Shown here one piece after another: positions 17,146 through 45,068 of a stretch of 47,604 nucleotides of DNA (positions are counted from its first letter, which is position 1; each line of letters opens with the position of its first letter). The stretch is from Nemertoderma westbladi. Lineage: Eukaryota > Animalia > Xenacoelomorpha. The position numbers were made by a program, and so were the translations under genes. The stretch covers positions 1 through 47,604 of the forward strand of contig JAUCBJ010003139.1 in assembly GCA_032718475.1 (NCBI GenBank), given 5' to 3'. The notes beneath the pieces are model-generated. The model searched no databases, had not been told where the DNA came from, and saw only the letters and a list, made by a program, of their open reading frames with translations.

Positions 17146-17603
17146 TGTAAAGGCTTTTGCGGATATAACTAGTCATTTTCCTCGCAAAGTACTGTGTAGG
17201 TGTATTAGCGGACATAAAAAGCCATTTTTTCTGTATGTGTACTTTAGCGGACATAACAAGCCATTTTATGCCGCAATACGCCAAATACTCTTAATACAGT
17301 GTAGTTCCGATGACGAAATCTATCAGCTGATTTAATGTCGATGTGGAGCTTTCTTAACTTTCTTTGTTTGGCTCGCTCGACCAATCAGGGCGATTTTCAT
17401 TTTATCTTGTACAGAAGCCTACGGGAAATCGCGCAATGCATGACGGTCTTTGTTTACCTTTTCCTGAGCCTCAGAACATCGGCTTTGGAATTATTCTGAG
17501 TTTCAGACTTTAGCCAAACATTAGACGGCTTTGATTATAGGCACGTATAACTGTTATCAAACTGGACAAACCAGAACATACATACTTGTCCTACGCGCGA
17601 ACA
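17146..17603 (+). repeat. 5' LTR of BEL-A (458 bp, TGT...ACA)
   Basis: It begins TGTAAAGGCTTTTGCGGATATAACT and ends GCGCGAACA, matching the B LTR termini TGTAAAAGCTTTTGTGGGATAACT ... GCGCGAACA. Homology to the B leader starts immediately after it. Confidence 0.8.
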
Positions 17604-17614
17604 ATAACAGTTAT
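17604..17614 (+). promoter_or_regulatory. Non-tRNA primer-binding site of BEL-A (ATAACAGTTAT)
   Basis: It abuts the LTR, has no TGG and is the exact reverse complement of LTR positions 17547-17557 (ATAACTGTTAT). Confidence 0.65.
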
Positions 17615-17702
17615 TTTAGTTTCTTTATTGCAACGTAGGCAATAAAGTTGAATGTACCAGTCGACCGGTAACCTGGCCTAACTACCTAACCACCCGAACC
17701 GG

Positions 17703-18773
17703 TGTAACAGCGGATTCAGTCCCCCGAAGAATCGGTCCCCCCGGACCAGATCTGCTAGCGGATTTAGTCCCCCCGGACCCAATCCGCTAGCAGATTTGGT
17801 CTCCCTAGGACCAAATCTGCTAGCGGATTGGGTCCTCGTTCGCGGATTTGGTCCCCCCAATGTTATTGCAATAAATTCAAAATACACTGCCAGACTGCTC
17901 CGTTCCCTTCCTTATTGTCAATGGATACAATACTGGCAGACCGGTTGCCGGTTATTCAGTATGTATCGTTTATTGTTCTGGTTAGAAAACATTGTGTGTA
18001 TCCTGCTCCTCTCCAATTTCGTAGTACGATAAATTTATTGTAATGAGGTTATATTGTTTTAACCTTTTTATTATTAGAAAATTTATCCTCCCCACCTGCA
18101 AACTATAATAATATGAATGAACATGAATGAATATGAATAACTGTTACTCAGTTGGGTTTAGGTGTAACAGCTGAACTGAATATACCTGAATATACCGAAA
18201 TGACACCAACTGACCAATGACAAATCCAACCAAATACACCTGACAACTCGAACTACAGTATGATTATTTACTGTAATAGGGACAGTACAATATCTTCCTC
18301 CTCCTCATGTAATCATCCCTCATCCATAATGAATCTATAATGTTGAAATTAGCTCCTTTCCTGAGTATAGTTGCAACTTTGTTGAATTGACTGGATATGT
18401 GTCATCTCCCGAAATATAATTATAGACGGCTTGATAAAGCTGCGTCTCATCGAAGTTGGCCATAATAGCCTACTGTACTGATGCGACTATATCAGTATAT
18501 ACAGATGTGGGAATTTAGTTTAACGCAGTAGTGGTAGCTACTGCAGTTTTAATCAGTCTATAATTTAATGCATAAGCTACGCTGCTATGTCAGTACCAGT
18601 ACTGCTGCACTCAGCACTGTCTGACTGTACTGTAAAATTATAATTTAAGGGGGGACTCAATCTGCGGAGGGGGGACAGAATCCGCTAGCGGATTCGGTCC
18701 CCCCGGACTCAATCCGCTAGCGGATTCGGTCCCCCCGGACCATATCCGCGGGGGGACAGAATCCGCTGTTACA
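17703..18773 (-). mobile_element. Non-autonomous Ginger1-type DNA transposon
   Basis: CCGG|TGTAACAGCGGATT ... AATCCGCTGTTACA|CCGG gives TGT/ACA termini and the CCGG TSD characteristic of Ginger1. The equivalent site in the B leader is empty (AACCGGTACTT). It has subterminal AATCCGCTAGCGGATT palindromes and a minus-strand remnant MANFDETQLYQAVYNYISGDDTYP from 18463. Confidence 0.85.
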
Positions 18774-20569
18774 CCGGTACTTACAGTTACATCAGTATTA
18801 TTCGATTTTGATAATTATATACCGGTAGGTCTTGATATTTAATCAGGGACTGCAGCCCTGGTTTTTTATTGGGATTTTACTTATTTCTGTCAGTTTTATT
18901 TATCTGTAAGTTAATATTGAGCAGAAGGCGTGTAAGCCTGCTCAGATTGTACAAGTAATTTGTAGGCTGGATTGTTGTCTGGCTGTTGTCAGGTCTGAAG
19001 AGATTGCAGTGTGTGTAGAGTGTATGTCCGATAAAATACTAGTTAGGAAGGTGGGGGCATCCAGTGTTGTAAGGTAAATCCCCTCCGAAAGAATAAGTCA
19101 TACTACTCGGTTAGAACGCATACTAACTAACCATTTTGGAGTCTGCATATACTGTAGTTTATTTAGGCTTGATAGTAGTCTGTCAGCATTTGGTTTGTAT
19201 TTTGTTTGTGTAGTCTTTACGGGTAGCGTAATATTTATTATTCAGAGTTTATGCGATTATTCGCAACATACACAACCCCAAGTTTATTCCTACAGTAATT
19301 GTGCTTGTTATACATACTGTTATAGTTAAATCAACCCCGGTACTACATCAGAGCTGTTTGGCGTAGGTAAAGACTGGTGATTTTATGCTCTAGTCACTCC
19401 AACAGATACCTTGGTTCTTTTGGCTGTACAAGTATATTTAACTGCTGGTTATTTGTTGTATAAGTACTTGTACCTAATTTAGGGTTTAGTGTACAATACT
19501 TTCCGAAGGTAATTAGTGCGTAGGCAGTATATTTGTGTTGTAAAGTGGTTAATAGGCACGTTAGCTCTGGTTGGCTGCGGTAATTAACTTCTAGGTAGGG
19601 ACACTCCGGGTACATAACGTAGTACTTATAGAGCTGTAAAGCGTCAGCCGTCAGACAGTGGTATTTTCTTATCTAGACAATGCAATATATTTACAATTGC
19701 TTTATTATTTTCAAATACCGTAGTATCCTGTCCGTTTGTAATAACCAGAAATTCTAACCCTTGTTAGGCTGGTTTGTAGATCTCCTGTAAAATTACCCTA
19801 AAATTTGTACGTGTAATTTTTGTGTTTATTTAGAGATTGTAATCTCACCCCGTAATTATACGTAATTTGTAGTAATAAGTAACTTAGTCAAGTAGAATTA
19901 TTTGTTTTAGTGTCCAATAAGTAGCACTACACTGAGAGCGTTCAGCTTCTGTGAAGTGACTCCTTCCTAGAAATAATAACATTTATTTCAAATATTGTCA
20001 AAAACCCATTAAACGGGTATATATATATTATAAATCAACTCAAACCGATTTATAAAATAGTAGGCCTGTCATCCATCAATTAGGTCTTAATATCAGTTGG
20101 ACTACTGCTTAAATATCAGTAATAAAGTAAAGAAAAGTAACCCTAAAATTCAGAAATTCAGTTATTATAAAATAATTGACATACTGGTATTTACGATAGG
20201 CTTATTATATTTATTTCTATAAATTTAAGCTGAAATTATATACTGGTATTCTGTAATTAATTCTAGTTTATAATTATACTTATATATACTATAAGTGTAA
20301 GCTGTATACCGGTATTCACGGTAGGCTTATTATATATTTATATATATTTGTGCTGAAATTATATACCAGTATTCTGTGACAAACCCTAGTCTGTGATAAT
20401 ACTTATATATATACTATAAGTGTATACCGGTATTCTAATATATTGTATATAACACGTTACACTGAGTAACGGTATCGGTAATTAATTATTAGGCTTATAG
20501 TTGATACTGAATTACTAGACTTGCTTTAACTGTAGTTATAGTAGTAGACATTCAACTGTACAAACAAAC

Positions 20570-23500
20570 ATGGCTGACACAAAGCAAAATCTGTCAGATA
20601 GTCTCCTAGAAACAACAGTCTGCGATCCAGATAGGAGTGCAGAACGTTTGAGACCGAAGTTCAAGTCCCCTCCTACTGTAAGAAAGGTCATCCCTCCAGT
20701 AGTAGTATCCGACCCTAGGCTAGTAAAGTACCGTAGGTCTATCATAGGCACTCGGGCTCAAGTCAAGCGGGACCAAGAGGCAGCTGTTAAACAACAGCAA
20801 CATTCGAACCGAGAACTTATTTCTCAGCGGCCCGATAGCTCCAGTAGTTCAGATACTGTAGAGTTGCCACCCGAACGCGGAGCAAAGATGGCAGATGCAG
20901 TTTATTCGGATCCACTTCTCATTCTTCCTGAAGCCGTACTCACTAGAGTATTGATTGCGGTGGAGGAACATCAAATTGATTGGGCGAGAAGTAAGCGATC
21001 GACCAAGGACAGTTATGCGGGATACACGAAGGAGGAACTGAAGTCTATTGTCGAGACGCAATGGAACTTCCCCGGACCCGGACTCCCGTTTAACTTATCG
21101 GAAGCTGCCTGGGAGGACTTATACAGGATGGGAGTGGTAAAGGACACTAGAGATCCAGCTGTGTGGAAGAGGTCGGCAGCCGGATATGTACAGGGATTCT
21201 TCAGCTCTTTGGAGCAATTAGAGGAACAACTGTTTCAACAACCCCAAGGACCTCAAGAGCAGGGAGAGCTGCTATATCAAGTTCGAGAACGAATCCTAAG
21301 AATTAGACTAATCCTTTCGGCCTTTGAGGAAGCCTCGAAGAGAAGCCAAGACACGTCGTTGCAAGTTGCCGTAAAGACTTGGTTCCAACGGGTGAGTCTT
21401 AAAGTCCAAGGAACAACCCAATGGAAAATTCAGCTGGCTGAACGCTCAACCCATGGAGAATCAACAGACGCTACCTTTTCTCAAGTGGAAAGCGAAGCGA
21501 CATTGGAGAAACCTCAGAAGAAGGACACTATTGACATCTATCTGTCGGACTATCAACGATTTATAGGTGACAATGAGTTGAGGAGACGGCTGGCTGGACT
21601 TCGCCCTACTAGTGAAGGAGCCAAGTTTGTGTTGGACGCATTAGATGCGGAAATGTTAGCTGCGAACCAAGCTAAATTTGATGAAAGCATACGCATCGCT
21701 AGGGTCCAAGAAGAACAGGTAAAGAAAAAACGTATAGAAGACCGAAAGGCGGCAGCAGCGGCAGCGGCAGAAGTTGAAAGAAAAGCGGCAGCGGCAGAGG
21801 CTGAAAGAAAAGCGACAGAGGCAGAGGCTGAAAGAAAAGCGGCAGAGGCAGAGGCTGAAAGAAAAGCGGCAGAGGCAGAGGCTGAAAGAAAAGCGGCAGA
21901 GGCAGAGGCTGAAAGAAAGGTAGCAGCGGCAGAAGCTGAAAGAAAAGCGGCAGAGGCAGTGGCAGAAGCAGAATGGAGGGCGTCTGAAGAGACAACCCAA
22001 CTAGAGTTGGAAAATCTTCAAGAGAAGCAAGACTACATAGATAAACAGAGAACAGCTAGTCAGTGGCAGATGATAAGTCGATCTACTCCCAAGAGACAGG
22101 GATTTACATCATCTGATGAAGGCTATACAACAGATCCTGAAGGCGGAGGAAATAGATCTCGTCCCAGCAGGCGTAGAAGAACGCCCCACCGTCAAAAATT
22201 GCCTAATTTGCCCCCAGCTGTGAGAAGGCAACTAGCTAGCACAGACTTAGGTAGTACAGAACCCACAGACCAAATTATTAGAGTAGAAAGACTCCCTACT
22301 ATAGTAGATGAGCCTGAAATAATTAGGCCTGTTCTCGAAGCCACCCCTTCGGTGATAGAGACACCTGTACTCCCAGAACCTACCTCTAAATTCCCTTTGC
22401 ACAGTACTAAACTACCTGTGCCCAGTAGAACAGCCCCTGAGACAATTCCTGTCCTGGATGCCGAGCGAGACATCAACGATTTATCGCCCGTCGTCCCTCG
22501 TCTGCCCGCTACTATGTTGGCGGCTCCTGCTTCGGGTCGAGTGGGTGGATGAGGGACGGCGGGGGATGAATCTCCTGCTCGGGCAGATGCAGGAGACTGT
22601 TCAACAGTTCAAGGGAACAGTAAGGGAAGGTAGGTTAGAGTTGCAAGAAGTGCGGCAGAGTATCGCGTTAGAACGCGATAAATTAGTAAATATACAAAGG
22701 GGTATACCACCACCCCATGTAACAATGTGTCAACCTGTTAGGTCTGAAGTATTTCATGCGCAAGGTGTGGAGCCTACATGCATCTATACTGCTAGTGAGG
22801 TAGAAACTCCTATAGTAAACCCTATTAAGGGTAATTATAAACCTGTTGACAATGATATTCCATATAGACCTGATCCTAATCCGAGAAATTTATATACCGA
22901 TAACTCGATATTAAATAACACGATGGCCCAAGAAAGTTTTACGCGTCAAATGGCTAGAACCGAAGCCCGTCAAGCGGTAAAAGTGGGAGAGATCGTCAAA
23001 TTCAATGGAGATGAGATGAAATGGTTACCTTTTAATGAATATTACAAAGATAACATACAGAACTCTGTACTATCTAACGGAGAGAAACTTAGATTCCTCA
23101 TCGAGTGTTTGGAAGGACCTCCCAAGTTAATGGCGTTAAAGTTTATTGGACACCCAGATGGATTAAGACAAGTTTGGGATACACTAAACATCAGGTATGG
23201 TAATAGGACAAACATAGCTAGGTATTTGTATGCAAAATTGGTAGCGCCCCGAAAGTTCCTTAGCAGCGGGATTATAGAGTTTTCCGATGAGATTCAGGAG
23301 ATCTGTAGACAACTAGATTGGTTAGGTAAGTCTCATGAATATCAGAGTTCCATGGATTATGGATTATTGGAGCCGTAGCATCTACTTTGCCAAAGGGTGG
23401 AGTAGGTACTCGCTGGGATATATGGATTATTGGAGCCGTAGCATCTACTTTGCCAAAGGGTGGAGTAGGTACTCGCTGGGACAAGAAAGTGCTCTATATG

Positions 23501-24037
23501 ATGGACCAGCAACAAAGAGACCCTACCATGGCTGATCTCATGTCATTCTTAAATGGAGAGGTAAGATTACAGCTCCTAAAGCAGTCCCGAGAGAAGACAC
23601 CGGAAAATAAGGTAATTGAAAAACCCGTTTCTAGGAGAAAGGTCACCCCAGTGTGTTATACAGATGACGGCGAAAACCAAACCTCTCAAGAGGAGAACAG
23701 CGGAAAAGACACCGAAAGATCTTACTATGTCAACAAAGCACCTAAAGACGTAAGTAAATTTAAGTCTCGAACTAGTGACAGGAGAGAACAGGTAACAAAA
23801 ACTCCTCCTACGTCTCCTAAGAGAGTTCATGGAAGGAAGCCCGAGGAAAGAACGAGTGTGCACAACACTACCCAAGGTAAAGTAAGTAACATCAAACCAA
23901 AATGTGCGCTGTGCGACAGGCCCCATCGTTTAAGTGTGTGTGATGAATTCTTAAAGAAATCCCTAAAAGATAGACGCGAAGTCATGTGGGATAAGCGGTT
24001 GTGTTATAATCTGAAACCGATAGTGAGCTCCCCCTAA
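20570..24037 (+). pseudogene. gag: BEL-A gag, frameshifted (ORFs 20570-22552, 22458-23378, 23387-24037)
   Basis: It has the BEL gag motif KFNGDEMKWLPF...LSNGEKLRFLIECLEG...LNIRYG and the zinc knuckle CALCDRPHRLSVC followed by a truncated LCYN. Confidence 0.85.
21750..21970 (+). repeat. 27-bp coding repeat (AEAERKAAE)n in gag, predicted coiled coil
   Basis: GCAGAGGCTGAAAGAAAAGCGGCAGAG occurs about 7 times in tandem. Confidence 0.9.
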
Positions 24038-24105
24038 CTATTCCTGACCGACAACCATCTTGGAAAGCGCCAACTTCCAACGTAGGGATCCGAGAATTTC
24101 CCGTA

Positions 24106-24946
24106 GTGCAGTTGAGAGTCCACGGGTTAGAAAAGAGCTATATAGTGAACGCACTCCTTGACTCCGGCAGCACAGGAACATTCATCGACAAAGAACTAGC
24201 CGAAGACATCTTTGCTGGACAACCCAAGTTCCGAACTAGGTTGAACCTTTCAGGAATTATGCAGGTTTGGAAATCTACAGTAGCCACAGACTACTATGTA
24301 GGCGCGTTGTCCACCCCCCAGGATGAACTAGGAGAACACAGTATAAGGTCAGTAAAAATGGTGGCGATAAAGAACTTCGCTACCAGCCAAGTGGAACCTT
24401 ATAACTGGGATGAAGACGATTTCACCCAGCAGCATGAGATACCTAGATTCAACATCGACTACCCAGGGGTACAAATACTCATCGGCCAAAATGCGCATGA
24501 GGCGCTTGAGACATTAGAGAAACGGCCTGCTCAACCGCAACCACTGCAAACCTATGCGGGAAGAACTAGAGTAGGTTGGTACTTTACTGGACCTTCCCGT
24601 AGGACACTCATGGAAAGGCTACCTAAAGATCAAGTCCACCAGGTGAGTGAATGAGAAGAGGAAATCAGTGAGGGAGACGACACACCTGAGGGAACACCAT
24701 ACTCCTCAGATAATGACGATATTCATCAACTATTCGACGAGGAGAATACCATCGACCTCCTTACGGAAAATAAAACTTGGCAAAACCAAGTGAACCTGTG
24801 TCACCTCATCCATCCAGGTGGACAAGTCGATTACAACGACGAACTGAATGAAGTGATAGATCGTTACAACGCGAAGACTCGCGATGAACACGCCATACGA
24901 TTCTTTACTCAAGAAGCTGTAGAGCCTAATTCCTACGATGAGGCCC
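24106..24946 (+). pseudogene. pol: BEL-A aspartic protease and PR-RT linker, cut by the BEL-B insertion
   Basis: ALLDSGSTGTFI active site, VQILIGQN, and the TRVGWYFTGP motif typical of Pao proteases. There is an in-frame stop at 24652-24654. Confidence 0.85.
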
Positions 24947-26169
24947 TGTTCGCGCTTTCAGACCTTTGGCAGTTTAACCCGCCAAATTAAGATGTCTTCT
25001 AGATATTAAATCGCTTTTTAGCCTATGACAAGTATTTGATTCACTACACTAGTCGAAACCAATCTGTGCACGACCATTCACCCGCTGGATATTCCCGGGA
25101 GATTGGGTTCGACGGTTTAATTTTATTGCTATGTAAGCCTAATGTATTATTCGACTGACAGTATTATATAATCTCTGACAATATTATTCACCTTCGGGAA
25201 TATTAACAGTTCCTTTAGGACGTGGCGCTTTATCTATATAAACAGAGTTATGACTTAAACTACTCACAACGATATGGCTTAATTATAATTCACATATATG
25301 GCGCATTCTTTAGGAAATGCTTCTTTAACAGACTCACTCATAAGCAATGCTGCACAATACTGCACACTAATCTGCCAATCTTCACTGATTTTAGTCACAT
25401 ATAAAAGGAACACAGACTGACTCATGTAGGGTCTATCAAATAACATTAGATTCACTTCAAACCACTTTAACATAAGTCACAATCGTTATTGGTAACCTTT
25501 CTCTCTTACCTTCGGTATATCAAGAATATTGGGTGTCGGGGTTATTTTTCGTTATTCCAATATAATAATTAATCAACCAATATAATGAATAACCGACAAC
25601 AAATAGCAGTACACAGTATTGATTGAGCAGGTAAATTTTAGCAGATTCAGCAGTTATTAAAAGCCGTGTGGTACGGTGTGTCAAATGCGGTGTGCATTAA
25701 AATGCGAGTTAAATGCGTTAAAGGATATATGTCCTTATAATTAAACCTACTAGTGTTGAGCTAAAAAGCAGAAAACATAAAACACTACAAAGCCGTTCTT
25801 TCGTGGCTTTGAAAAACTCGTGACTACTGCTCTATACGATGATACCAACTACCCTTATTCCACGAAGCTCCCGTTCAACACAGAGAAAGAGCAGTGAGAT
25901 AGGAAAATTTCAGTTCAGTAGCTCTGTGATAGGTCAAAATCAAGGCTAACTCAAATTCTATTGGGAGATACAAAAATAAGGCTATGACGCAACCTTCCTA
26001 GGCTAGTTGGCCGATTAAACAGAGCCCAGATGCCTGCGTACAGCAAATCAGCCAATAAGCTGGTAGCTTGCACTATTTTAGCTATCGATCCCCTTGAGAG
26101 TATTCTAGCGACCGGGGGGGAACTGGCCAACAAGGCAAACGAATCAGTTATCCCACAAAAGCTTTTACA
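24947..26169 (-). repeat. 3' LTR of BEL-B
   Basis: It matches 36624-37846 except for 6 substitutions found by eye (~99.5%). It is preceded on the minus strand by the PPT-like CTGGGAGCGG. Confidence 0.95.
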
Positions 26170-26179
26170 CCGCTCCCAG
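26170..26179 (-). promoter_or_regulatory. Polypurine tract of BEL-B
   Basis: The minus strand reads CTGGGAGCGG|TGT directly into the 3' LTR. Confidence 0.7.
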
Positions 26180-26247
26180 AAAATGGGATTTAAGTCTATA
26201 AAATATACAAAATCACAGTTTCTAAAATATAAAAATACTCTAAACAG

Positions 26248-27928
26248 TTAGTCTTTCTTGCGCGGACGGTGTTTACCCAGTTTTTTAAAGCTAGCAAGAG
26301 TCATTTTCTCTTTGGGGCGAGCCACTTTACGAGGAGGGCTGTAGCTCCTAGGCGAAGGGTGCAATATAATTGCATCAGAAGGTGCAGGGTTACGATCGGT
26401 ATACCCGCCGGTCGAAGTACCTGGTTGATTAATATCAACCTCAGTGGAGTGAGGTCTAACGGCCTTTAGAGCGCGTCTCAGGACAGCAGCTCCTACGGGT
26501 CCTTGACGGGTCGTCTGGACACTAGCGGTGGGTGGACCGTGAGTGGTAAGGAACTTTCTCGGTTTAATGGTTCTCTCCAGCTCGCGTTCTCGGGTTCGAT
26601 ATTCATATGGTCGTCGAGATATTTCCTGTAGTTCAGGATGCGAGTTCACAAAGATGTCGCCATACTCCGGGTCCAACACGCTTTATTAACTCATAACTTG
26701 GTACGCGTGTTTTCTGTTCAATCGACGCGAATAGGTAAGGATGGAACGCGTAAACTCCCTCGTAAGCTCGTCCAGGGTAATAGCGATGTCTGGATTCGCA
26801 ATGTAAATCTGCGTTCGCTTCCCAAGCTCGGATGTATCGCAGGGTGATCATCTCGTCTACGCTCTCTAAATCGCGATTAAAGGGACAATTGTAACTTTCG
26901 TGTCCTTTAAGTTGGCAGTAATGACATTGAGTCATAAATTGTGGGCAGACGGCAAATATATGAGAGTTATTAAGCCGGCAATAAGCACAATATATTTCCA
27001 TCATCGGTTGTTCGAGGAAATAGGAACAAGGTACGCTCGAGTCTAGAGGAGTGAAGTGGTCTCTCGATGCGCATAATCGACAACGTTTTCGGGAAATGTA
27101 GTTGGCGTGTCGATAATCGTACGCTGTGAGACGCTGTGGACCTTGATACCACTCTATGACATAATCAGTGTCACTGCTCCGAGAAGTTGTAGGCTGAATC
27201 GCTTCTGATTCCAAGCACACTGGTTCATCCTCCAGTTGTATAGACGAAGTGGGTGCGTCTGTCTCAGTAAGTGGATCCACTGTCTGTATTTCCACGACAG
27301 AATAACCTGTAGGTATTCGGGGTCTTTGTATAACAGATGAATGTGAGTTCTGTATACAAACGTCTTGAAACACGGCAAATCCAGCGCTACTCAGTTTCTC
27401 CGCAGCTGAGTCTCTAAGACTGAGCTTGGTCAGCGCGCGATCCTTGAACTGACTATCGACGTTACGGAACGGAGTCAGAAAGCGCCGGAAACATTCGAAA
27501 CGTATGAACTTATTGTGTTCGTCTAACTTGGCGAGTTTAGTTCCAAGTATTAACGGGTGAGCGCGTATGGTACGACTGCACACATCGGCTAGCCAACCGG
27601 CAAGTGCTGCGTTTTCAAAGATCGTGTATATAGCTAAGGAAGGGCGAAGTGGAACACTCATAAAGCTATATACTGCACCAGGCGCAGTTAATGGTCCGTC
27701 AAAATATAAATGAGAGTAATGATCTCCATATACCTGCTGGTAATTGATAGGATTTCTAACTTTGAAGTTCCATCCATATTCTTGAAAGGCAAGATGTCCG
27801 ATGGATGTCCGTTGTACTTTAGTAATGCCGCTGGGTGTATTGGCATACATAGTGCGAAAGAAACCTCGGCCTTTGGCCCAAGGAGCAATCAGCTGAGTAT
27901 CAACGAAAGGGTATGGAATGTTCTCCAT
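26248..27928 (-). CDS. BEL-B accessory protein with a Cys/His zinc-knuckle cluster (ORF 26633-27928, probably continued by overlapping ORF 26248-26679)
   Basis: The 431-aa ORF has CRLCASRDH...C and CAYCRLNNSHIFAVCPQFMTQCHYCQLKGHESYNCP. The 143-aa ORF ends in a basic tail (KKLGKHRPRKKD) about 70 nt before the PPT. Confidence 0.7.
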
Positions 27929-28793
27929 ATTCCTGTTGTATGCCTAATATGTTCTCCGACAGCGATGGTAGAGCAGAGGAAAAACTATCGCATTCAATGA
28001 AATTATGAAATACGACTTCAATAGGAGGATTGTTACATTCGAATACTATCCTCAACCGAATTTATCCCCCAGTGTGATGAGGTAAACACCAGCTCAAAGA
28101 TATGTTTGCCTCAGTTGTTCTACATAAGATTTATATCCCTAATCATTAAGGGAGGTGAACAACCAGATTTATGACACATAATGGTACCAGTTGTTCACAA
28201 ACTATCCGCGTGTCCTTTCAGTCCTTGTTTCACGGTTGTGGACTTGAGGAAATTAGGAAGTGGTTGATTATCTAATCAAGAACGAGAGGGTGGAAGTTGA
28301 TATCATAAATATCAACAGAATATGACATGGACAGGAGGTGCGGACACCAATATTAGCATCCAGATGAACAGTAAGGAATGGGAGGTTTAGTATTCGTTTC
28401 CCGAAGCTCCGAGCGCGTTGGGAAGAGAAGGTGAGGAGATTTATTAGGATGAGGTATGATTCATACCACGATACCACTATGATTGGTCGATCGATGAAGG
28501 GAGTAAAGAGGAGGAAGGATATAGGGTAGTATCCATAAGACACCACAATGGACAAGTTTTCCATCACGTCATCATTCATTCTTGTCTTTTAATTGTGACA
28601 CTGATCACAATAATTACAGGAAAACGATGAAGGAAGAGAAATTTACAGCCTCCCGAAGGAGACCGCCCGCGAGCACCCGTGCCCCGGGGAAAACTATTCA
28701 CATTATGGACCCTGGACATTAACATATGTCTCTTCTCCAGTGGTTCTCCTTTATTTGTCCGCATCAACCTTCTTCCATGTTCTATCCTTCGAG

Positions 28794-29148
28794 TTAATTT
28801 CGTATAGGGTTCTCGTGTTCTATTCTCGATTTATCGTTTCGACTCCGCTGGGCATGATATTTAAATAAAACCATTTCCCTTTCGGTGTCTACATCGTCCG
28901 TATCGTGTAAATCAATAGGATGACCAGTGGTCAAGAAGTCCATATACGTACCATTACGATGCGTGTAGCTTTCTATAATCCAATTCACGCGTAAGTTGCT
29001 CCTGGGACATTGGCGGTTCGATATAACGACCATCGTCCTCTGTAGTAGTTGGATCAGCGTCGCCGCGTATCAAGCTATCGACAAACGCTTGTAAAGGTAG
29101 AGTATATCTCTCCCTGATACCAAGATCATCTTCTATTAATTCAGTCAT
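28794..29148 (-). pseudogene. BEL-B copy of accessory ORF3 (frameshifted, then divergent)
   Basis: MTELIEDDLGIRERYTLPLQAFVDSLI... and YTHRNGTYMDFLTTGHPIDLHDTDD... are nearly identical to ORF 43115-43924. Confidence 0.85.
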
Positions 29149-29639
29149 ATCTGCTATACAAGTTCACCAATATTATAATGAGTTTATATATCGTTAGGCG
29201 AGCGGGCGTCGCTGCCTATTTCTCCCTTGCCCCCGGACAGTAGGAGATTCTCAGCGCCGATGTACCGCTGTAGCTGTACTTTCGCCAACGACGTAGCCGT
29301 ACAACGACAACGACAACCGGCACAAGTCACTCCACTGTCCGTCCCAAAGGCTTAGATGTACTTCAGGTATTCCTTGGAGAGTTAGGTTATTTTTACGATT
29401 GCGACTAGCTACTGTAAACACACTTTAGCAGTAACATTCACCTATAAACTCACAAATACCACACAACTGGTCACAACTACGCACATTCGGGCCATTTGTC
29501 CGTTAGTCAATGCCTTCCAGAATGTCACTGTATTATTATGTATCCTTGGATACTAGCAGTGCGCTATTTATTCCCTATGCTATTCAATGGGACAAGCTTT
29601 CTATTGTTCGTTTAACTCAATTCTAATTCTAGCGTGGTT

Positions 29640-29653
29640 GTTGCTATGGTGAC
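29640..29653 (-). promoter_or_regulatory. RFX X-box motif (GTCACCATAGCAAC) upstream of accessory ORF3 in B
   Basis: It fits the GTNRCC-AT-RGYAAC consensus and is conserved in A at 42613. Confidence 0.5.
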
Positions 29654-30788
29654 ATTATGAAAAGCTAGCGGTAGAATTAGGGTGATTCCAATGCATACAG
29701 ATAAGGGATGTTATTTAATAGTAATTCTTTAATAGCCAATGTCCTGTTTATACATGACTTTACGAATTTTATCGGCTATTAACTATGTTTGGGAGACTTT
29801 CGTACACGCATACGCATAATAATATAAATCTCCGCTCCCTTGATCTATTAATTAATGGAATTTTGGGAATCGCGTAAAATGGCAATTTATTAAATTCATT
29901 AAAAGACATGAATTTAAATTTATTCCCTGAAATTTTATTATTTGATAACTAAATGGGCATATTTTGATTCTAGAACATGTCTAGGGACACCAGATCCTTA
30001 ATTCTAAGAAAATTGTCTCTTTAAGAATATCGGTAAATGCTACGATATCTTAATTGACTAGAATTGTTGAAGGATCTGAATTTTACAGATTTTGACTTAT
30101 TTGATTTGTAAATATTAACTAATTAATATTTGAGATGGGCACCGATTTATTCCAGAACTTGTCTGGGGACGTTAACCACTGATTCTATAATTTGTCTTTC
30201 AAGTATATCGGTGGGTGCCACGATATCTTAATCGACTAGAATTACAGATGGTCAAAGGGTTTAACAGATTTATTTTGCGTTATACGCTACTGTTAAAGAG
30301 ACATCACGCTACTATATGTATTATTTAATATACGGTATGAGAGCAATATCGCACGAAGCAATGTCAGTGTGAAGAGGCAAGTCGTTTCCAAGGTCTACCC
30401 AGAGCTTGGTTTAGCCGAGACACGAGGATCTGAACTTTGCATTCCTAATACTCTGCCTACCAATAATACTAAAATATAGTAGTGGCTTTATTGTACTTTA
30501 ATAAGTACGGACATTTCATCTTACTGTAGTTACGTATTTATAATATAATACGGACAGTAAGGAAAGAGAAAAATAATTATTTCTTCGCCGTCGCACTAAA
30601 TATAATATAAGTAATTACTTACGTAATAAACACAAATATATTGCACTATTCTACAAAATAATCGCTAAATAATATTCTACGAAATTAAATAAAACGATTA
30701 TAATAAAATTACATGGTAATACATACATAAATATAAAAATAATAAAATAATATAAAATAATAGAGTCACACGCCCACTCCGAACGATA

Positions 30789-33700
30789 TTAAGTTGGGGA
30801 GTCCCTAGATGTCGGTTGGATTAGGGAAGTGGTCGTGGGAAGAGTTTCTTGCCTTCCATAGTTTCCGGAGAGCTCTCTGTCTCTTTCCAGTAAACATAAA
30901 CGACCCACTGGGCGATTGAGCTGTTGAGTCTCAAAGACTATCCCTGGTTTCTTAAAGTTCCGCCGCATGACGACGAGCTCTACTGATCGCACCAAACCAT
31001 CGCTCGAGATATAAGTCTCGATGATACGTCCTGTTTGCCATCGCTTACGTGGGAGATCGGGGTCCACAATAAGCACCATGTCTCCAGCGCTGACGTTTTC
31101 TTGCTGCGCAAACCACTTAGTTCGAAGTTGTAGAGTGGGCAGGTAATGTTTCTCGAAATGGTCAGCGAAACGACGGGATAGCAACTGCATAAGTTGCCAG
31201 GTTCGACGGCAGTACTCGTCTCCGTCTGTGATCTCCGATCGCGGGAGCATGGCTACGGGTTTCTTCAGTAGAAAGTGCGCGGGTGTTAGCACTTCCAGGG
31301 AATCAGGATTTGAAGAGACTGGCATAAGCGGTCTTTCATTGAGATAGGCGGCGATTTCCTCCATTAACGTCCGCAATAGTTCGTCGGTGAGATAAGCGCG
31401 ACAAGGTACAATAAAGTGGAACGCAGTCTTCACGCTCCTAATCAATCTCTCCCAACTTCCTCCCCACCAAGGGGCGTCGGCGGCGTTGAAGGTCCAGCTA
31501 GACGCTGTTATCCTTAGCTGATCGTCCACCTGTCTTTTGTTCCAGTCCTTTACGTAAGCTTGAATTTCGTTGTTGGCGCCAATGAAGTTCGTTCCCTTAT
31601 CCGATCTCATCGTGTTACTGGTTCCGAAGCGAGCAATCTGTCGTCGTAAACTCAACACGAAGCTGTTGGTGGATAGATCGTTTACCATATCGAGATGAAT
31701 GGCCCTACAAGTCATACAAACGAAGATGACACACCATCTCTTGACTATAGTCCGGGCACGATATACTTCAATAGGGCCAAATAAATCCACACCGGTATTA
31801 GTAAAGGGTGGTTCATAGAAGCTTACTCTTTCCCTAGGTAATTCTGCCTCTCGCTGTGTCAAAGGCCTACTGAATGCTTTCCTACAGGGTATGCAGTTCC
31901 TAAGAACTTGGTTCAGAGCCCTACGGGGTTTATAAAAATAGTAGCGAGTTCGAATTTCGCTCAGAACTCGTTCTCTACCAGCATGATACAGTTTGCTATG
32001 AACATCCACAATTATCTTGATTTGTATATCAAGATTTCTAATGAGTATGGGAAATTTAGTGTCAAAGGATAACGGGGCGTTGGTGAGCCGACCTCCAACA
32101 CGTATTAACCTATCTATCATGGTACTAGAGAAGCGATCCCTTAAGCGCATCTGTGGATTTCTTAACAACAGGAAATACTTATCGGAATCCTCATAGCATT
32201 GTAGGAGTCTCAGCATCTGTTTGTTGGTTTCATCATGCTCCTGGTAACTGATCTTCTCCTTTAGAAACCTGTCGGATATCTTGTATTTGGGAAGATCTTT
32301 AACAACATGGACTCGTGCAGATGTTGATGGAGCATCATCACTATTGGTCTTCGTTCCGGAGTAACGATGATGAAAACATCGTTTCAAATAGGTAACAGCT
32401 TTACAGAGCCGATTCCAGGAACTGTAGTGACGTATCGCTCTCTGCAAGAGAGGTGAGAGTCCTTGCGAAATATCTGGTATTCCAGATTTCCAATCCTTGT
32501 CACGGATTTCCAAGACTTCTTTAGTCGTGGCGGTGGGTTTCTGATCCAAAGCATCCTCTCCGGAAGTAAATAATACAGATAGATCAACCGCAGGTTTAAA
32601 CAACTTCGATTTACTCGCTCGAGTTTTGGGTTTAACTTTCTCCGCTCCCTTGGCCTGTCTGATCTCTGCTGTTGTGAGATGAGGAGGCCATTCTTCTTCT
32701 TCCCTGTAGAGAAAGTCGGGTCCTCCTAACCATTCGGGAGTATTTACCAATTCTTTTGGAGTCGCTCCTCGGGACGCGATGTCTGCTGGATTAATCGTTC
32801 AGGGGCAATGTCTCCATTGGTCCATCGTCGTGCGACTAAGTATGATGGCTACCCTGTTGGTAACGAAGACGCTGAACTGACAGACTTCATTGGTTATATA
32901 CTCTAACACGAGTAAAGCGTCGGTCCAATAGACAGTTTTCTCTAATGGATAGTCAATCTGTTCGGTTACATTCCGGCCGATGGCTGTAGCGTATAGAGCC
33001 GCCTTTAACTCCGCTCGAGGAACTTTCAACTTGTTGTTGATTAATGCCTTAGAAGTAACCAAGGCGACTTTGATTCCATCCGGAGTTTCCACTCTTAGGT
33101 AGGCTACTATACCGATTCCCATATCGCTGGTGTCTCCAAACACATGGAGTTGATAGGAATACGTAGGGAGAACATGACCAAAATATGAACGGGAAATTAT
33201 AAAATCTTCGATAGCCGGCAGAGAATCTTCCCATTCCATCCACTTCTTCAATAATTCTCCCTTAAGTGGATCGTCCCATGAGTGGTTTTCAAGCCACATT
33301 TGTTGTACCAAACTACGAGCAATCAATATAACTGGGCTAATAAATCCCAATGGATCGAAATAAGTGCTCAGTATACTTAAGCAAATCCATTTGGTTCGAA
33401 CTGGATTATCTCGCTGTTTTAGTTGGAAAAACAGGATATCTCTCTCTGTGTCCCATTTCAAGCCGAGTGTCTTGGTCTCTGGCAGATCATCTTTGATCAA
33501 GTCGAGATCTTTCGCTCCTCGATCTTCCGCAGGGATCGACTCCAGAAACTCACGGGAGTTGCTGGTGAATTTCGTTAATCGAAACCCACCTCTTTTTAAG
33601 CACTCTACCGTTCCTTTAGCGACCTCAATGGCTTCCTCAACTGATGGAAGGGACTTCAGATTGTCGTCCATGTATATGTCTCTCTTGATGTTGTCGATCA

Positions 33701-33956
33701 CTTCCTTAGAGAAGGCCTCTCTGTTGTCCTCTGCAGTAGTACGCACTACCGAACAGGCATTGGAAGGGCTTGAGATTATCCCAAAGGCCTGGATGGTCAT
33801 CCAGTACTCCACCGGTTTCTGGTTGAGGTCTCCTTCGGGCCACCACAGAAATCGTAGACTATCTCGATCCCTATCTAACACCTTGACTTGTAAGAACATG
33901 CCTTCTATATCGGAGGCGAAAGCAATCGAATATTGTCTCAATCTTAAAAGAATTCT
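30789..33956 (-). pseudogene. pol: BEL-B pol: partial RT, RNase H, integrase and DUF5641-like tail
   Basis: RT motifs SDIEGMFLQV and IYMDD; RNase H motifs LHVFGD, PRAEL and YWTDA; integrase motifs H-H-C-C, GVDLFGP, SDKGTNF and GGSWERLIRSVK. There is one in-frame stop at 32799-32801. Confidence 0.92.
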
Positions 33957-33961
33957 ATAAC

Positions 33962-34354
33962 TCAATAACCAATCAATAACCTAGTGAGTACGGCTGCAGG
34001 AAGGATGAGAAGGGGATCCGAATAAACCGCATCCATCATCTTTGCTCCGCGTTCTGGTGTCAGTTCTACAGTATCCTCACTACTGGAGCTGTTGGGCCGT
34101 TGAGAAGTAAGTACTTGGCTCGCGGGTTGTTGCTGTTCTGCTGCTTCTTGGTCCCGCTTGACCTGAGCTCGAGTGCCTATGATAGACCTACGATGTTGGA
34201 CTAGCCTAGGTTCTGTTATTACTACTGGAGGGATGACCTTCCTCACAGTGGGAGGTGAACTGAACTTACGACCAGACGGTTGTACGTCTCTATCTGAGTC
34301 GCAGATAGTTACATCTAATAAACTGTCTGACAGGTTCTGCTTAGTATCAGACAT
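33962..34354 (-). pseudogene. gag: BEL-B gag N-terminus, truncated by a ~4.4-kb deletion
   Basis: MSDTKQNLSDSLL... is homologous to the first ~130 aa of ORF 20570. Confidence 0.9.
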
Positions 34355-35679
34355 GACTATGTATACCGTTGAATGTCTACTGCTGTATTACAGTCTGAGC
34401 AAGTCTAGTAACTCAGTATTAACTGCTAGCCTAATAATTAATTACCGGTACTGCTACTCAGTGTAGCGTGATATATAATATATTAGAATACCGGTATGCT
34501 TATAGTATATATAACTATTATTACAGACTAGGTTTATCACCGAATACCGGTATAATTTTAGCACAAATATATATAAATATATAATAGGCCTATCGTGGAT
34601 ACCGGTATGCAGTTTACACTTATAGTGTATATATATAAGTATAATTACAGACTAGAATCAATTACAGAATACCGGTATGATTTCAACCTAAAATTTATAG
34701 AAATAAATATAATAAGCCTATTGTAAATACCGGTATGTCAATTATTTTAGAATAATTGAATTTCTGAACTTTAGGGTTACTTGGTTACTTTAACTTACTT
34801 TATTACCGTTATTTAAGCAGTAGTCCAACTGATATTGAGACCTAATTGTTATATGGTAGGCCTACTATTTATAAATCGTTAGATTTGATTTATAATATAT
34901 ATATACCCGTTTGAATGGGTTTAGCCAATGTTTGAAATAAATGTTATTATTTCTGGGGTAATCACTACACAAAGCGGTACGCTTTCAGTGAAGTGTTACG
35001 TATAGGACACTAAAACAAATAATTCTAATTTACCTAAGTTACTTAATACTACAAATTACGTACAATTCGGGTGAGATTACAATCTCTAAATAAACACAAA
35101 AATTTACAAAAAACACAAAATACGAATTTTTAGGGTAATTTTACAAGAAGTCTACAAACCAGCCTAACAAAGGGTTAGAATTCTGGTTATTACAACGGAC
35201 AGGGTACTACGGTATTTGAAATAATAAGTAGTAGTAAATACACTGCGTTGTCCAGATAGAAAAATACCACCGCCTGACGACCTATAGCCGTATCGCTATA
35301 GGTACTACGTTATGTATCACGGAGTGTTCCTACCTAGAAGTTAATTACCGCGGACTACCAGATCCAACGTGCCTATCAACCACTTTACAACACAAATATA
35401 ATGCCTACACTAATTACTTTCGGAAAGCACTGTACACTAAACCCTAAATTAGGTACGAGTACTTGTATAACAGATAATCAGTAGTTAAATATACTTGAAC
35501 AGCTAAAAGAACCACGGCATCTGCTGGAGTGAACGATGCACAAAATCACCAGTCTTTACCTACGCCAAGCAGCCCGTGTAGTACCGGGGTTAATTTAACT
35601 ATAGCGGTATGTATAACAAACACAATTACTGTAGGAACAAACTTGGGGAATGAATGTTGCGAATAATCGCATAAACTCT

Positions 35680-36251
35680 GAATAATAAATATTACGCGAC
35701 GCGTACAAACTACTCAAACAAAATGCAGACCGAACACTGACAGACTACCATCAAGCCTAAACAAACTACAGGACATGCAGACTCCGAAATGATTAGGGAG
35801 TATGCGTTCTAACCCAGTAGTACGACTTATTCTTTAGTTGGGGGTTTACCTTACAGCGTTCGCTGCCCCTACTTCCTAACCGTACTTAATCGGACAAGTG
35901 ATCTACACACGCTGCAATCCGCTCAGGCCTAATAACAGCCAGACAACTATCCAGCCTACAAATTATCTAAATAAAATTATACGCTACCCGTACAGACTTA
36001 CACAAACAAAGTACAGACTAAACGATGACAGACTACTCTCAAGCCTAAATAAACTACAGGACATGCAGACTCCGAAATGATTAGGGAGTATGCGTTCTAA
36101 CCCAGTAGTACGACTTATTCTTTAGTTGGGGGTTTACCTTACAGCATTCGCTGCCCCTACTTCCTAACCGTACTTAATCGGACAGGTGATCTACACACAC
36201 TGCAATTCGTTCGGACTTAACAGCAATCAGACAACAGCTCAGCCTACAAAT
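35680..36251. repeat. ~288-bp tandem duplication in the BEL-B 5' leader
   Basis: GACAGACTAC..AAGCCTAAA.AAACTACAGGACATGCAGACTCCG occurs at 35739 and 36027. A has a single copy. Confidence 0.85.
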
Positions 36252-36611
36252 CGTCTGTACAATCTGATCAGGTTTACACGCCTTCTGTTCAATACTGGCC
36301 TACAAATAAATAAAACTTGACAGAAATAAGTAAACCATATAAAGGAGTAAGGGGTGATCAATCCCTAATCCCTTAAACAGCCTACCGGTATACAACAATC
36401 AAATCGAATAATACTAGTGTACTTATACGGAAGTACCGGTTAGGACAGCTAGGCCTACGGACCTACAGAAGTACCGGTTCTGGCAGTTGGGCCTACTGAC
36501 CTACGGCAGTACCGGTTCTGGCGGTTGGGCCTACTGACCTACAGATGTACCGGTTCAGGTTTACCGGTTGACCGGTACTTTCAACTTTATTGCTTACTGC
36601 AATAAAGAAGC

Positions 36612-36623
36612 TATATCCTTTAA
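36612..36623 (-). promoter_or_regulatory. Non-tRNA primer-binding site of BEL-B (TTAAAGGATATA)
   Basis: It abuts the 5' LTR, has no TGG and is the exact 12-nt complement of the LTR site at 37395-37406. Confidence 0.7.
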
Positions 36624-37846
36624 TGTTCGCGCTTTCAGACCTTTGGCAGTTTAACCCGCCAAATTAAGATGTCTTCTAGATATTAAATCGCTTTTTAGCC
36701 TCTGACAAGTATTTGATTCACTACACTAGTCGAAACCAATCTGTGCGCGACCATTCACCCGCTGGATATTCCCGGGAGATTGGGTTCGACGGTTTAATTT
36801 TATTGCTATGTAAGCCTAATGTATTATTCGACTGACAGTATTATATAATCTCTGACAATATTATTCACCTTCGGGAATATTAACAGTTCCTTTAGGACAT
36901 GGCGCTTTATCTATATAAACAGAGTTATGACTTAAACTACTCACAACGATATGGCTTAATTATAATTCACATATATGGCGCATTCTTTAGGAAATGCTTC
37001 TTTAACAGACTCACTCATAAGCAATGCTGCACAATACTGCACACTAATCTGCCAATCTTCACTGATTTTAGTCACATATAAAAGGAACACAGACTGACTC
37101 ATGTAGGGTCTATCAAATAACATTAGATTCACTTCAAACCACTTTAACATAAGTCACAATCGTTATTGGTAACCTTTCTCTCTTACCTTCGGTATATCAA
37201 GAATATTGGGTGTCGGGGTTATTTTTCGTTATTCCAATATAATAATTCATCAACCAATATAATGAATAACCGACAACAAATAGCAGTACACAGTATTGAT
37301 TGAGCAGGTAAATTTTAGCAGTTTCAGCAGTTATTAAAAGCCGTGTGGTACGGTGTGTCAAATGCGGTGTGCATTAAAATGCGAGTTAAATGCGTTAAAG
37401 GATATATGTCCTTATAATTAAACCTACTAGTGTTGAGCTAAAAAGCAGAAAACATAAAACACTACAAAGCCGTTCTTTCGTGGCTTTGAAAAACTCGTGA
37501 CTACTGCTCTATACGATGATACCAACTACCCTTATTCCACGAAGCTCCCGTTCAACACAGAGAAAGAGCAGTGAGATAGGAAAATTTCAGTTCAGTAGCT
37601 CTGTGATAGGTCAAAATCAAGGCTAACTCAAATTCTATTGGGAGATACAAAAATAAGGCTATGACGCAACCTTCCTAGGCTAGTTGGCCGATTAAACAGA
37701 GCCCAGATGCCTGCGTACAGTAAATCAGCCAATAAGCTGGTAGCTTGCACTATTTTAGCTATCGATCCCCTTGAGAGTATTCTAGCGACCGGGGGGGAAC
37801 TGGCCAACAAGGCAAACGAATCAGTTATCCCACAAAAGCTTTTACA
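36624..37846 (-). repeat. 5' LTR of BEL-B (1223 bp)
   Basis: Direct repeat of 24947-26169, reading TGTAAAAGC...GCGCGAACA on the minus strand. Confidence 0.95.
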
Positions 37847-37851
37847 GGCCC

Positions 37852-40800: not shown

Positions 40801-41419
40801 GCCGTGCCGCGCGTATCTCACCGACGAAATTTTGCGGACGTTAATGGAGGAAATCGCCGCCTATCTCAACGAGAGACTGCTTATGCCAGTCTCATCGAGT
40901 CCCGATTCCCTGGAAGTGCTAACACCCGCGCACTTCCTACTGAAGAAACCTGTAGCCATGCTCCCACGATCGGAAATCACGGACGGAGACGAATACTGCC
41001 GGCAAACTTGGCAACTTATGCAGTTGTTATCCCGTCGTTTCGCTGACCATTTCGAAAAACATTATCTGCCTAAGCTACAACTTCGAACTAAGTGGTTTGC
41101 GCAGCAAGAAAACGTCAGCGCCGGAGACATGGTCCTTATTGTGGAATCAGATCTTCCACGTAAGCGATGGCAGACAGGTCGTATCATCGAGACTCATATC
41201 TCAGATGATGGTTTGGTGCGATCGGTAGAACTCGTCGTCATGTGACGTAACTTTAAGAAACCTGGAATTGTGTTCGAAACACAACAACTCAATCGCCCAG
41301 TTGGTCGTTTATGTTTACTGGCGAGAGACCGAGAACTGTCCGGAAACTATGGAAGGCAAGATACTCTTCCCACGACCACCTCCCTAATCCAGCCAACATC
41401 CAGGGACTCCCCAACGTAA
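37852..41419 (+). pseudogene. pol: BEL-A pol: RT, RNase H and integrase (frameshift near 38410, stops at 39023 and 41243)
   Basis: RYEIGLPF, YYLTHHYV, VRVVFDGS, SLNSELLPGPNL, SDIEGMF, FGDASD, PGTINPADIASRG and the integrase DDE motifs. It is collinear with B pol. Confidence 0.93.
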
Positions 41420-42626: not shown

Positions 42627-43114
42627 AACCACGTGAGAATTAGAAGCGAGTTAAAAGAACAATAGAAAGCTTGCCCCATTGAATAGCATAAGGAATAAAT
42701 AGCACACTGCTAGTATCCAAGGATACATAATAATAACGTGGCATTCTGGAAGGCACTTGACTAACGGACAAATGGCCCGAATGTGTACAATTTGTGACAG
42801 TTGTGTGGAATTTGTGCGTTTATAGGTGAATGTTACTACTAAAGTGTGTTTACAGTAGCTAGTCGCAGTTGTGAAAGTAGCCCTACCTCTGCAGTAAGAA
42901 CCTGAAGTAAATCTAAGCCCTTGGGACGGACAGTGGAGTGACTCGCGCTGGTTATCGTTGTCGTTGTGTAGCTACTACATTGGCGAAAAACACAGTGACG
43001 ACGGTACATCGGCGCTGAGGATCTTGCGCTGTCCGGGGGCCGTAAGGGGTAGGCAGCGACGCCCGCTAGCCTAATTATAACTAATTATAATATTGATAAA
43101 CTCATATAGCAGCT

Positions 43115-43924
43115 ATGACTGAGTTGATAGAAGATGATCTTGGTATCAGGGAGCGATATACTCTACCGTTACAAGCGTTTGTTGATAGCTTAATATGCGG
43201 CGACGCTAGTCCAACTACTACGGAGGACGATGGTCGTTATATCGAACCGCCAATGTCCCAGGAGCAACTCACGCGTGAATTGGACTATAGAAAATTCACC
43301 GCTCACTACACGCATCGTAATGGTACGTATATGGACTTCTTAACTACTGGCCATCCTATCGATTTACACGATACGGACGATGTAGACACCGAAAGGGAAA
43401 TGGTTTTATTTAAATATCATACTCAGCGGAGTCGGAACGATAAACAGAGAATCGCACACGAGAATTCTATTCGAAACCGACTCGAAAGAGAAGACGTTGA
43501 AGAGCCGGATAAACGCAGCGACTTCAATGATTATCTGGAATTCTTGAGAGAAACATATCTCAATATTGCCAGTCAACAGAATCTAGAAACTCGATATCCT
43601 CAAGGTATACATCATGACGCCATGATAGAACTCAAACGGCTCTATTTCACTATGATGTATCTTACCGCCGATCGACAGCTACATGTCGTCCCAGATAGCT
43701 TCGAACAGATGGAGGAATATTGTAAAACTGGAGAACGATCACCCGCATTTCCCCTGCAGGACGTGCGTCTTTGGTATTACTGTGATGAATGCCCTAGACC
43801 CAACCAGCAAACGGAAAGACATAAACATCCGCGGAGACGTTGCGCTAAACACAGTTTTACTCGTTATACCTATGGGAGTTTCAAGCGAAACTTGTTCGAC
43901 GACGTATCACCTACGCTCGCTTGA
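43115..43924 (+). CDS. BEL-A accessory ORF3, 269 aa, unknown function, possible C/H metal site (CDEC...H...C..H)
   Basis: Intact ORF whose start and first ~120 codons are conserved in B. It is preceded by the AG acceptor-like ATAGCAG. Confidence 0.7.
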   Translation: MTELIEDDLGIRERYTLPLQAFVDSLICGDASPTTTEDDGRYIEPPMSQEQLTRELDYRKFTAHYTHRNGTYMDFLTTGHPIDLHDTDDVDTEREMVLFKYHTQRSRNDKQRIAHENSIRNRLEREDVEEPDKRSDFNDYLEFLRETYLNIASQQNLETRYPQGIHHDAMIELKRLYFTMMYLTADRQLHVVPDSFEQMEEYCKTGERSPAFPLQDVRLWYYCDECPRPNQQTERHKHPRRRCAKHSFTRYTYGSFKRNLFDDVSPTLA

Positions 43925-44992: not shown

Positions 44993-45068
44993 TGTCTTAA
45001 TGCTCTTTGCAGCAGCCTTCACTTCTGCAAAGGAGATATCACCAATGGGAATATCTGGGAGTACAGAC

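What the first reader, a model, noticed from the sequence alone, without database searches (positions are those of the whole stretch)
17547..37406. Candidate tRNA-independent self-priming in BEL/Pao retrotransposons, supported by covariation between two sister elements
Seen: neither 5' LTR is followed by a TGG tRNA primer-binding site. In A, the 11 nt after the LTR (ATAACAGTTAT, 17604-17614) are the exact complement of LTR site 17547-17557 (ATAACTGTTAT). In B, the 12 nt after the LTR (minus strand TTAAAGGATATA, 36623-36612) are the exact complement of LTR site 37406-37395 (TATATCCTTTAA). The two LTR sites are homologous (A gctttgattataggcacgt-ATAACTGTTAT; B ggtttaattataaggacat-ATATCCTTTAA) and lie ~400 and ~440 nt from the LTR start. 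They differ at 4 of 11 positions, and all 4 changes are mirrored in the PBS. Pairing holds even though the spacing is ~46 nt in A and ~770 nt in B. The 3' end of the paired strand sits exactly at the LTR boundary. Established: S. pombe Tf1 and related chromoviruses self-prime through an 11-nt duplex between the mRNA 5' end and the PBS, cut by RNase H. Inference: a BEL lineage evolved a comparable mechanism independently; I am not aware of this being described for BEL/Pao. Caveats: only two elements are compared, and the A motif is itself nearly palindromic (the B motif is not).
Basis: partly seen in the sequence, partly recalled or inferred. Interest (0 to 1): 0.92.

Follow-up and report, generated by a model that had tools for sequence, protein, structure and literature searches.

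The report
Self-primed BEL/Pao retrotransposons without tRNA
Two related animal jumping genes lack the usual tRNA landing site and instead carry 11 letters that pair exactly with a spot in their own terminal repeat, and distant relatives show the same pairing, often across a predicted splice joint, so this group likely starts copying itself with its own RNA rather than a host tRNA.

Summary
Confirmed. In both BEL/Pao elements the 11 (A) or 12 (B) nt after the 5' LTR lack TGG and exactly complement a homologous LTR site; all 4 differences between A and B are mirrored (shuffles 7 and 6 of 20,000). Among 14 distant relatives with clean LTR ends, none of 8 TGG-type elements shows such pairing, while all 6 others do: 2 directly, 4 only across a predicted GT-AG intron inside the LTR. 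A partner that exists only after splicing points to RNA and to the primer being copied into the PBS. Best reading: Tf1-like self-priming from the element's own 5' leader. Not shown: transcription start, splicing, cleavage, priming. A TATA-like word 11 nt upstream of the site could place it in U3, the main rival; the Tf1 'pretzel' fold is not predicted. A's LTR end rests on homology to B. My nine literature searches found self-priming for Tf1/sushi gypsy and TAR copia elements, not BEL/Pao. The scan's unchecked notes had reported this, including the splice-joint form, on other DNA; I tested it on independent loci.

The parts
17146..17603 (+). Element A 5' LTR (458 bp, TG...CA); ends inferred from homology to B; no second copy in the window
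17536..17541 (+). TATA-like word TATAGG, 11 nt before the A site (TATAAG at 37416-37411 in B); role unknown
17547..17557 (+). A: LTR site complementary to the PBS (predicted self-primer)
17604..17614 (+). A: PBS without TGG
17623..17647 (+). A: 9-bp hairpin after the PBS, same stem as in B
   Evidence: pair probability 0.99
17703..18773 (.). Insert in A's leader with terminal inverted repeats starting TGT and CCGG on both sides; absent from B
20519..24946 (+). A gag (DUF1759) and aspartic protease, in several broken frames
24947..26169 (-). Element B 3' LTR (1223 bp, 6 differences from the 5' LTR), preceded by a short purine tract
26633..27943 (-). B extra 3' ORF, 436 aa, no family match (weak zinc knuckle E 0.089)
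30789..33980 (-). B pol remnant: end of RT, Peptidase_A17 (RNase H region), integrase, DUF5641; upstream part deleted near 33955-33970
36585..36607 (-). B: 9-bp hairpin after the PBS
36612..36623 (-). B: PBS without TGG
36624..37846 (-). Element B 5' LTR (1223 bp); AATAAA at 36804
36953..37021 (-). B: degenerate inverted copy of the site and its upstream flank, predicted to mask the site when upstream (U3) sequence is in the RNA
37395..37406 (-). B: LTR site complementary to the PBS (predicted self-primer)
37847..41329 (+). A pol continued: RT, Peptidase_A17, integrase, DUF5641, in broken frames
43100..45074 (+). A extra 3' ORFs (274 and 283 aa), no family match; first one partly shared with B
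45069..46661 (-). Endonuclease ORF of a LINE-type element where A's 3' end would be expected

Best explanation
These BEL/Pao retrotransposons carry an 11-nt site in the LTR that exactly complements the sequence after the LTR, and they likely prime reverse transcription with their own RNA: the transcript would start at or just before the site, fold back so the site pairs with the PBS, and be cut at the site's 3' end (17557 in A, 37395 in B) to free the primer. Extension from that end would run straight into the LTR's terminal CA, as a tRNA primer does. Plus-strand synthesis would then copy the primer into the new PBS, which explains why site and PBS change together. In many relatives the site is assembled only after an intron in the LTR is removed, so the spliced 5' leader is the predicted primer there; A and B are intron-free forms. 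B lacks RT and would be copied in trans, but must supply the pairing in cis. Shown: complementarity, register, covariation, absence in TGG-type relatives, splice-site words. Inferred: start site, splicing, folding, cleavage (enzyme unknown; RNase H by analogy with Tf1), priming.
For: Exact, LTR-anchored complement in A and B, far beyond shuffles; mirrored changes, swapped pairs do not bind. B is young (6 differences in 1223 bp, intact target duplication), so its priming site worked recently, and the primer must have bound at the LTR edge. Independent relatives at 30-40% protein identity: of 14 with a clean CA end, 7 TGG-type had at most 5 nt direct and 7 nt spliced complement; of 7 first called non-TGG, 2 had 11 nt direct (null 1 and 0 of 1000), 4 had 11-15 nt across GT-AG (null 0, 0, 2, 2 of 1000), and 1 (L114) had none and proved TGG-type behind a duplicated end. 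By hand, L088 (14 nt) and L094 (11 nt) also pair across an intron. The search asked only for GT[A/G], yet 5 of these 6 donors read GTAAG. The 15 tabulated PBSs differ at 5.5 of 11 letters on average but all have T second (offsets partly chosen by best match). A 23-row integrase tree splits the 8 TGG from the 15 self-complementary elements on one branch (82/76, not starred). Folding: B's site-PBS helix has probability 0.87-0.96 when the RNA starts 0-16 nt before the site and 0.00-0.01 at 20 nt or more. TATA-like words about 30 nt before the paired site in L030 (-31, exact), L084 (-29) and L094 (-32). Precedent: Tf1's first 11 bases pair with the PBS and are cut by RNase H (PMC7175516, passages).
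Against: No RNA data: start site, splicing and cut are unseen. No TATAWAW within one mismatch near -30 in A or B, and most of the 11 relatives' sites scored (7 of 11 rows) also lack one there. The conserved TATA-like word at -11 would put the start about 8-20 nt after the site; many contigs of the family carry one more A there, giving TATAAAG (insertion at 37411). The Tf1 three-duplex 'pretzel' is not predicted: no flanking duplex in A, one in B. The boundary-free scan was only modestly above its controls (8 of 19 against 1 and 4 of 19), and 11 of 19 gave nothing. A and B are a long branch; the 135-row tree left them in an open fork near TGG elements and put L030 on that side. If the start is at the site, spliced forms need a first exon of 3-9 nt and an intron that is spared in the 3' LTR.
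Confidence: 0.62

Rival explanations
1. Still self-priming, but the site lies in U3 behind the TATA-like word, so the primer is the 3' LTR copy: the RNA's 3' part is cut at the site and pairs with the PBS, and strand transfer uses the second packaged RNA.
For: TATAGG/TATAAG conserved 11 nt before the site in A and B; family contigs with TATAAAG; CCAAT at 17381 is the only other promoter word found in A; L052 has a TATA-like word at -22.
Against: In B the site is predicted to be masked by its inverted copy whenever 20 nt or more of upstream sequence are present, as in the 3' LTR; L030, L084 and L094 have TATA-like words about 30 nt before the site; cutting there removes the repeat needed for strand transfer; spliced forms would lose their intron readily.
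Confidence: 0.2
2. The pairing is a by-product or a regulatory hairpin (a fold-back copy made once during reverse transcription, or a leader switch) and priming uses something else.
For: B's LTR holds another, degenerate inverted copy of the same region, so fold-back copying happens here; A's motif is almost palindromic; both leaders are rich in hairpins.
Against: A one-off copy would decay, not track 4 changes between A and B; the length (11-15 nt) and register at the LTR edge recur in unrelated sequences; a complement to an exon-exon joint cannot come from DNA-level duplication; it occurs in elements without TGG and in none of 8 with it.
Confidence: 0.1
3. The primer is a host RNA such as a tRNA half or other small RNA, and the LTR site only mimics it.
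For: Half-tRNA primers exist in copia lineages (PMC6317226, passages); some relatives' PBSs begin GTTC(G)AA, like a tRNA T-loop word (likeness recalled). The host tRNA set was not available.
Against: The 15 PBSs differ widely, each matching its own LTR; no TGG for a CCA end; at most 4 nt complement to the one tRNA in the window.
Confidence: 0.05

Closest known systems
Tf1/Tf2/Tj1 and the Tf1/sushi group (Ty3/gypsy chromoviruses), self-primed
   Same: No tRNA PBS; 11-nt LTR segment complementary to the PBS at the LTR edge (PMC7175516, PMC4600332, bioRxiv 2022.12.06.519325; passages read).
   Different: BEL/Pao proteins, not gypsy; pretzel structure not predicted; start site unproven; loop of 46 or 771 nt; relatives build the site across a predicted intron.
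TAR lineage of Ty1/copia (Houba, Osr-1) and Tcn1 chromoviruses, predicted self-primers
   Same: Predicted by the same test, 10 or more nt complementary starting 0-5 nt after the LTR (PMC6317226, passages), which A, B, L052 and L084 pass.
   Different: Plant copia or gypsy elements; no splice-joint form mentioned in the passages read.
Belpaoviridae (BEL/Pao) as described by ICTV
   Same: Gag DUF1759, protease, RT, Peptidase_A17, integrase, DUF5641 in that order; LTRs of 0.46-1.2 kb; short purine tract.
   Different: The profile (PMC8742986, whole text) gives an 18-nt PBS for tRNA-Arg or -Gly and genomes of 4.2-10 kb; here no tRNA PBS, B is 12.9 kb despite a deletion, with extra 3' ORFs. Named clade not determined.

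Membership tests
BEL/Pao (Belpaoviridae) | BEL-type Gag/Pol domains (DUF1759, Peptidase_A17, integrase, DUF5641) in PR-RT-RH-IN order | tested here: met
BEL/Pao (Belpaoviridae) | TG...CA LTRs with target duplication and purine tract | tested here: met
   B; A has only one LTR in the window
BEL/Pao (Belpaoviridae) | 18-nt PBS complementary to a tRNA 3' end (ICTV profile) | tested here: not met
   no TGG after either LTR; filed as a variant lineage by protein evidence
BEL/Pao named clades (Sinbad/Sailor, Dan, Suzu, Flow, Tas, BEL, Pao) | Grouping with reference elements | not testable with these tools
Tf1/sushi group | Ty3/gypsy chromovirus proteins | tested here: not met
   only BEL-type domains found
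Tf1-type self-priming | About 11-nt LTR segment complementary to the PBS at the LTR edge | tested here: met
Tf1-type self-priming | Primer is the first 11 nt of the transcript | tested here: inconclusive
   folding favours a start within 16 nt in B; promoter words conflict; no RNA ends seen
Tf1-type self-priming | Three-duplex pretzel around the PBS | tested here: not met
   predicted folds show 0 of 2 flanking duplexes in A, 1 of 2 in B; folding omits pseudoknots
Tf1-type self-priming | Cleavage after the primer by the element's RNase H | not testable with these tools
   needs biochemistry

The most novel reading that the evidence does not exclude
A large, old branch of BEL/Pao retrotransposons abandoned tRNA priming once and primes with its own leader, which in many families is built by the host spliceosome from a first exon of a few bases and an exon inside the LTR; A and B are derived forms that lost the intron, B adding an RNA switch that frees the primer only at the 5' end.
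Probability: 0.4. Interest if true: 0.9.

Novelty: new variant of a known kind. Interest (0 to 1): 0.76.

Why it matters
BEL/Pao is the second most abundant LTR class in animal genomes (PMC3118150, passages) and is described as tRNA-primed with poorly understood replication (PMC8742986). Self-priming here would be a third independent origin, after gypsy Tf1/sushi and copia TAR, and the splice-joint form would tie the start of reverse transcription to host splicing. It predicts exact RNA ends that can be checked, frees these elements from control by tRNA fragments, and would explain why PBS-based annotation misses them.

Tried and rejected
No host genome is held, so copy-level covariation and a host tRNA scan were not possible. 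Pattern scan of viral contigs for the A/B LTR-end motif: 0; protein scan of viral contigs: no relative. No close protein relatives: best identities 28-40%. Sequencing runs: 6 holders, no RNA holder listed. Contigs laid on B's LTR: the 40 differences shown include none in the site or PBS, but 104 more were hidden and contigs are not phased, so this is inconclusive; four joints or loose ends fall at 37394-37396, right after the site, a weak hint of a boundary only. Copy-level variation around A's site and PBS was not obtained. Of 119 loci, 45 had a flanking repeat, 22 had both ends inside the contig, 14 a clean CA; the 8 dropped were L044, L070, L088, L094, L104, L105, L107, L119; five of them plus L114 were examined by hand: L088 and L094 positive, L044, L070, L105 no match; L114's 13-nt match lies outside its LTR. 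L044 and L085 hits are treated as chance; L064 is a near copy of L022 and L012 shares its PBS. Four loci were left out of the large tree as too short. No spliced complement in A or B (5 and 7 nt, at null level). The post-PBS hairpin of A/B is not recognisable in relatives. Atlas search of B's extra ORF: no usable hit. Look-alike windows in the scan's index: none.
Full report
Anatomy. Two related BEL/Pao elements are nested. B lies on the minus strand from 37846 to 24947, with 1223-bp LTRs that differ at 6 places and a GGCCC target duplication. It sits inside A's pol between protease and RT and lacks most of gag, the protease and the start of RT. A runs on the plus strand from 17146; its 5' LTR (458 bp) is recognised only by homology to B's ends, and no 3' copy is in the window, where a LINE-type endonuclease ORF starts at 45069. 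A's frames are broken in gag and pol.

Observation. The complement is longest at offset 0 from the LTR end, 11 nt in A and 12 in B, and was reached in 7 and 6 of 20,000 dinucleotide shuffles. The sites are homologous, differ at 4 of 11 letters, and the PBSs mirror all 4; swapped pairs do not bind. Because B transposed recently and its 3' LTR ends at the same base, its minus-strand primer had to sit at this edge (inference from the standard pathway).

Relatives. No host genome was held and no close protein relative exists in the database, so I used 119 distant loci from metagenome and genome contigs. After my first reading was logged, earlier unchecked notes of the scan suggested looking for a partner split by an intron; I tested that on these loci. 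Of the 119, 45 had a flanking repeat, 22 had both ends inside the contig and 14 a clean CA end. Seven TGG-type elements had at most 5 nt of direct and 7 nt of spliced complement. Of seven first called non-TGG, L052 and L084 had 11 nt direct; L015, L022, L030 and L087 had 15, 12, 12 and 11 nt only across a GT-AG intron of 76-511 nt in the LTR; nulls were 0-2 of 1000. L114 had none, and turned out to have TGG behind a duplicated end. By hand, L088 and L094 added 14 and 11 nt across introns, while L044, L070 and L105 gave nothing. Five of six donors were GTAAG although only GT[A/G] was required. A boundary-free scan of 19 more loci gave 8 hits against 1 and 4 in two controls; six look real. The 15 PBSs tabulated differ at 5.5 of 11 letters on average; all have T second and 14 have A sixth.

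Tree. With 23 labelled integrase segments, one branch separates the 8 TGG from the 15 self-complementary elements (82/76, not starred; 75% of bootstrap trees), and direct and spliced forms intermix. The 135-row quick tree did not resolve A/B, a long branch, and put L030 among TGG kin. One origin is allowed, not shown.

Mechanism. A PBS that matches an exon-exon joint cannot arise by DNA-level duplication; the simplest source is the spliced RNA acting as primer and being copied into the PBS during plus-strand synthesis (inference). The same copying explains the mirrored changes in A and B without double mutations. Which LTR copy supplies the primer depends on the start site. For the 5' copy: B's site-PBS helix is predicted at 0.87-0.96 when the RNA begins within 16 nt of the site and at 0.00-0.01 from 20 nt, because an inverted copy at 36953-37021 then masks it (that duplex beat 200 of 200 shuffles but was noticed after the fact); L030, L084 and L094 have TATA-like words about 30 nt before the site. 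Against: A and B have none there, a TATA-like word is conserved 11 nt upstream, and many family contigs read TATAAAG. The Tf1 pretzel is not predicted. I give 0.62 to the 5' primer, 0.2 to the 3' LTR primer, 0.1 to a by-product or switch, 0.05 to a host RNA; self-priming of either kind is about 0.8.

Literature. Searches. The ICTV profile (PMC8742986, whole text) describes tRNA-Arg/Gly priming. PMC6317226 (passages) lists self-priming for Tf1/sushi, Tcn1 and copia TAR. PMC7175516, PMC4600332 and bioRxiv 2022.12.06.519325 (passages) describe the Tf1 mechanism and pretzel. Word searches in four BEL/Pao surveys (PMC3118150, PMC554778, PMC6238403, PMC8556966) found no mention of PBS or tRNA; PMC3601003 passages gave nothing on BEL priming. 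I saw no report of self-priming in BEL/Pao, but subscription papers, Repbase Reports and the supplements of these papers were not seen and may bear on this.

Verdict. The feature is real, belongs to a wide BEL/Pao group, and most likely reflects tRNA-independent self-priming: a new variant of a known mechanism, with a possibly new splice-built form in relatives. The start site is the open point.

Noticed in passing
window 17703-18773: About 1.07-kb insert in A's leader with inverted ends starting TGT and CCGG on both sides; resembles a non-autonomous Ginger-type DNA transposon (likeness recalled, not tested).
   Followed up: partly
window 26633-27943 (-), 43100-43924 and 44223-45074 (+): Extra ORFs after pol; the last ORFs of A and B are unrelated to each other; no Pfam or Atlas match.
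   Followed up: partly
window 311-1861 (-): 516-aa open frame built on a 27-nt tandem repeat; no Pfam match. A's gag also holds a 27-nt repeat (21757-21967).
   Followed up: no
window 5302-6087: Five identical copies of a 158-bp, very AT-rich, partly palindromic unit.
   Followed up: no
window 4524-4595 (-): tRNA-Asn-like sequence called by ARAGORN; may be a SINE head.
   Followed up: partly
window 37186, 37014, 36944 (-) and 37438 (-): Splice-donor words in B's long LTR after the site and a strong acceptor 33 nt before it; no role found.
   Followed up: partly
window 36450-37880: The family is very abundant in its host's runs; the stretch just after the site varies in length among copies.
   Followed up: partly
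L081-L119: Many bacterial and archaeal genome records, including a Wolbachia chromosome (L098, L118), contain whole BEL/Pao elements, probably host contamination or misassembly.
   Followed up: no
L088 5897-6601: LTRs begin TA and end AA instead of TG...CA, identical in both copies.
   Followed up: no
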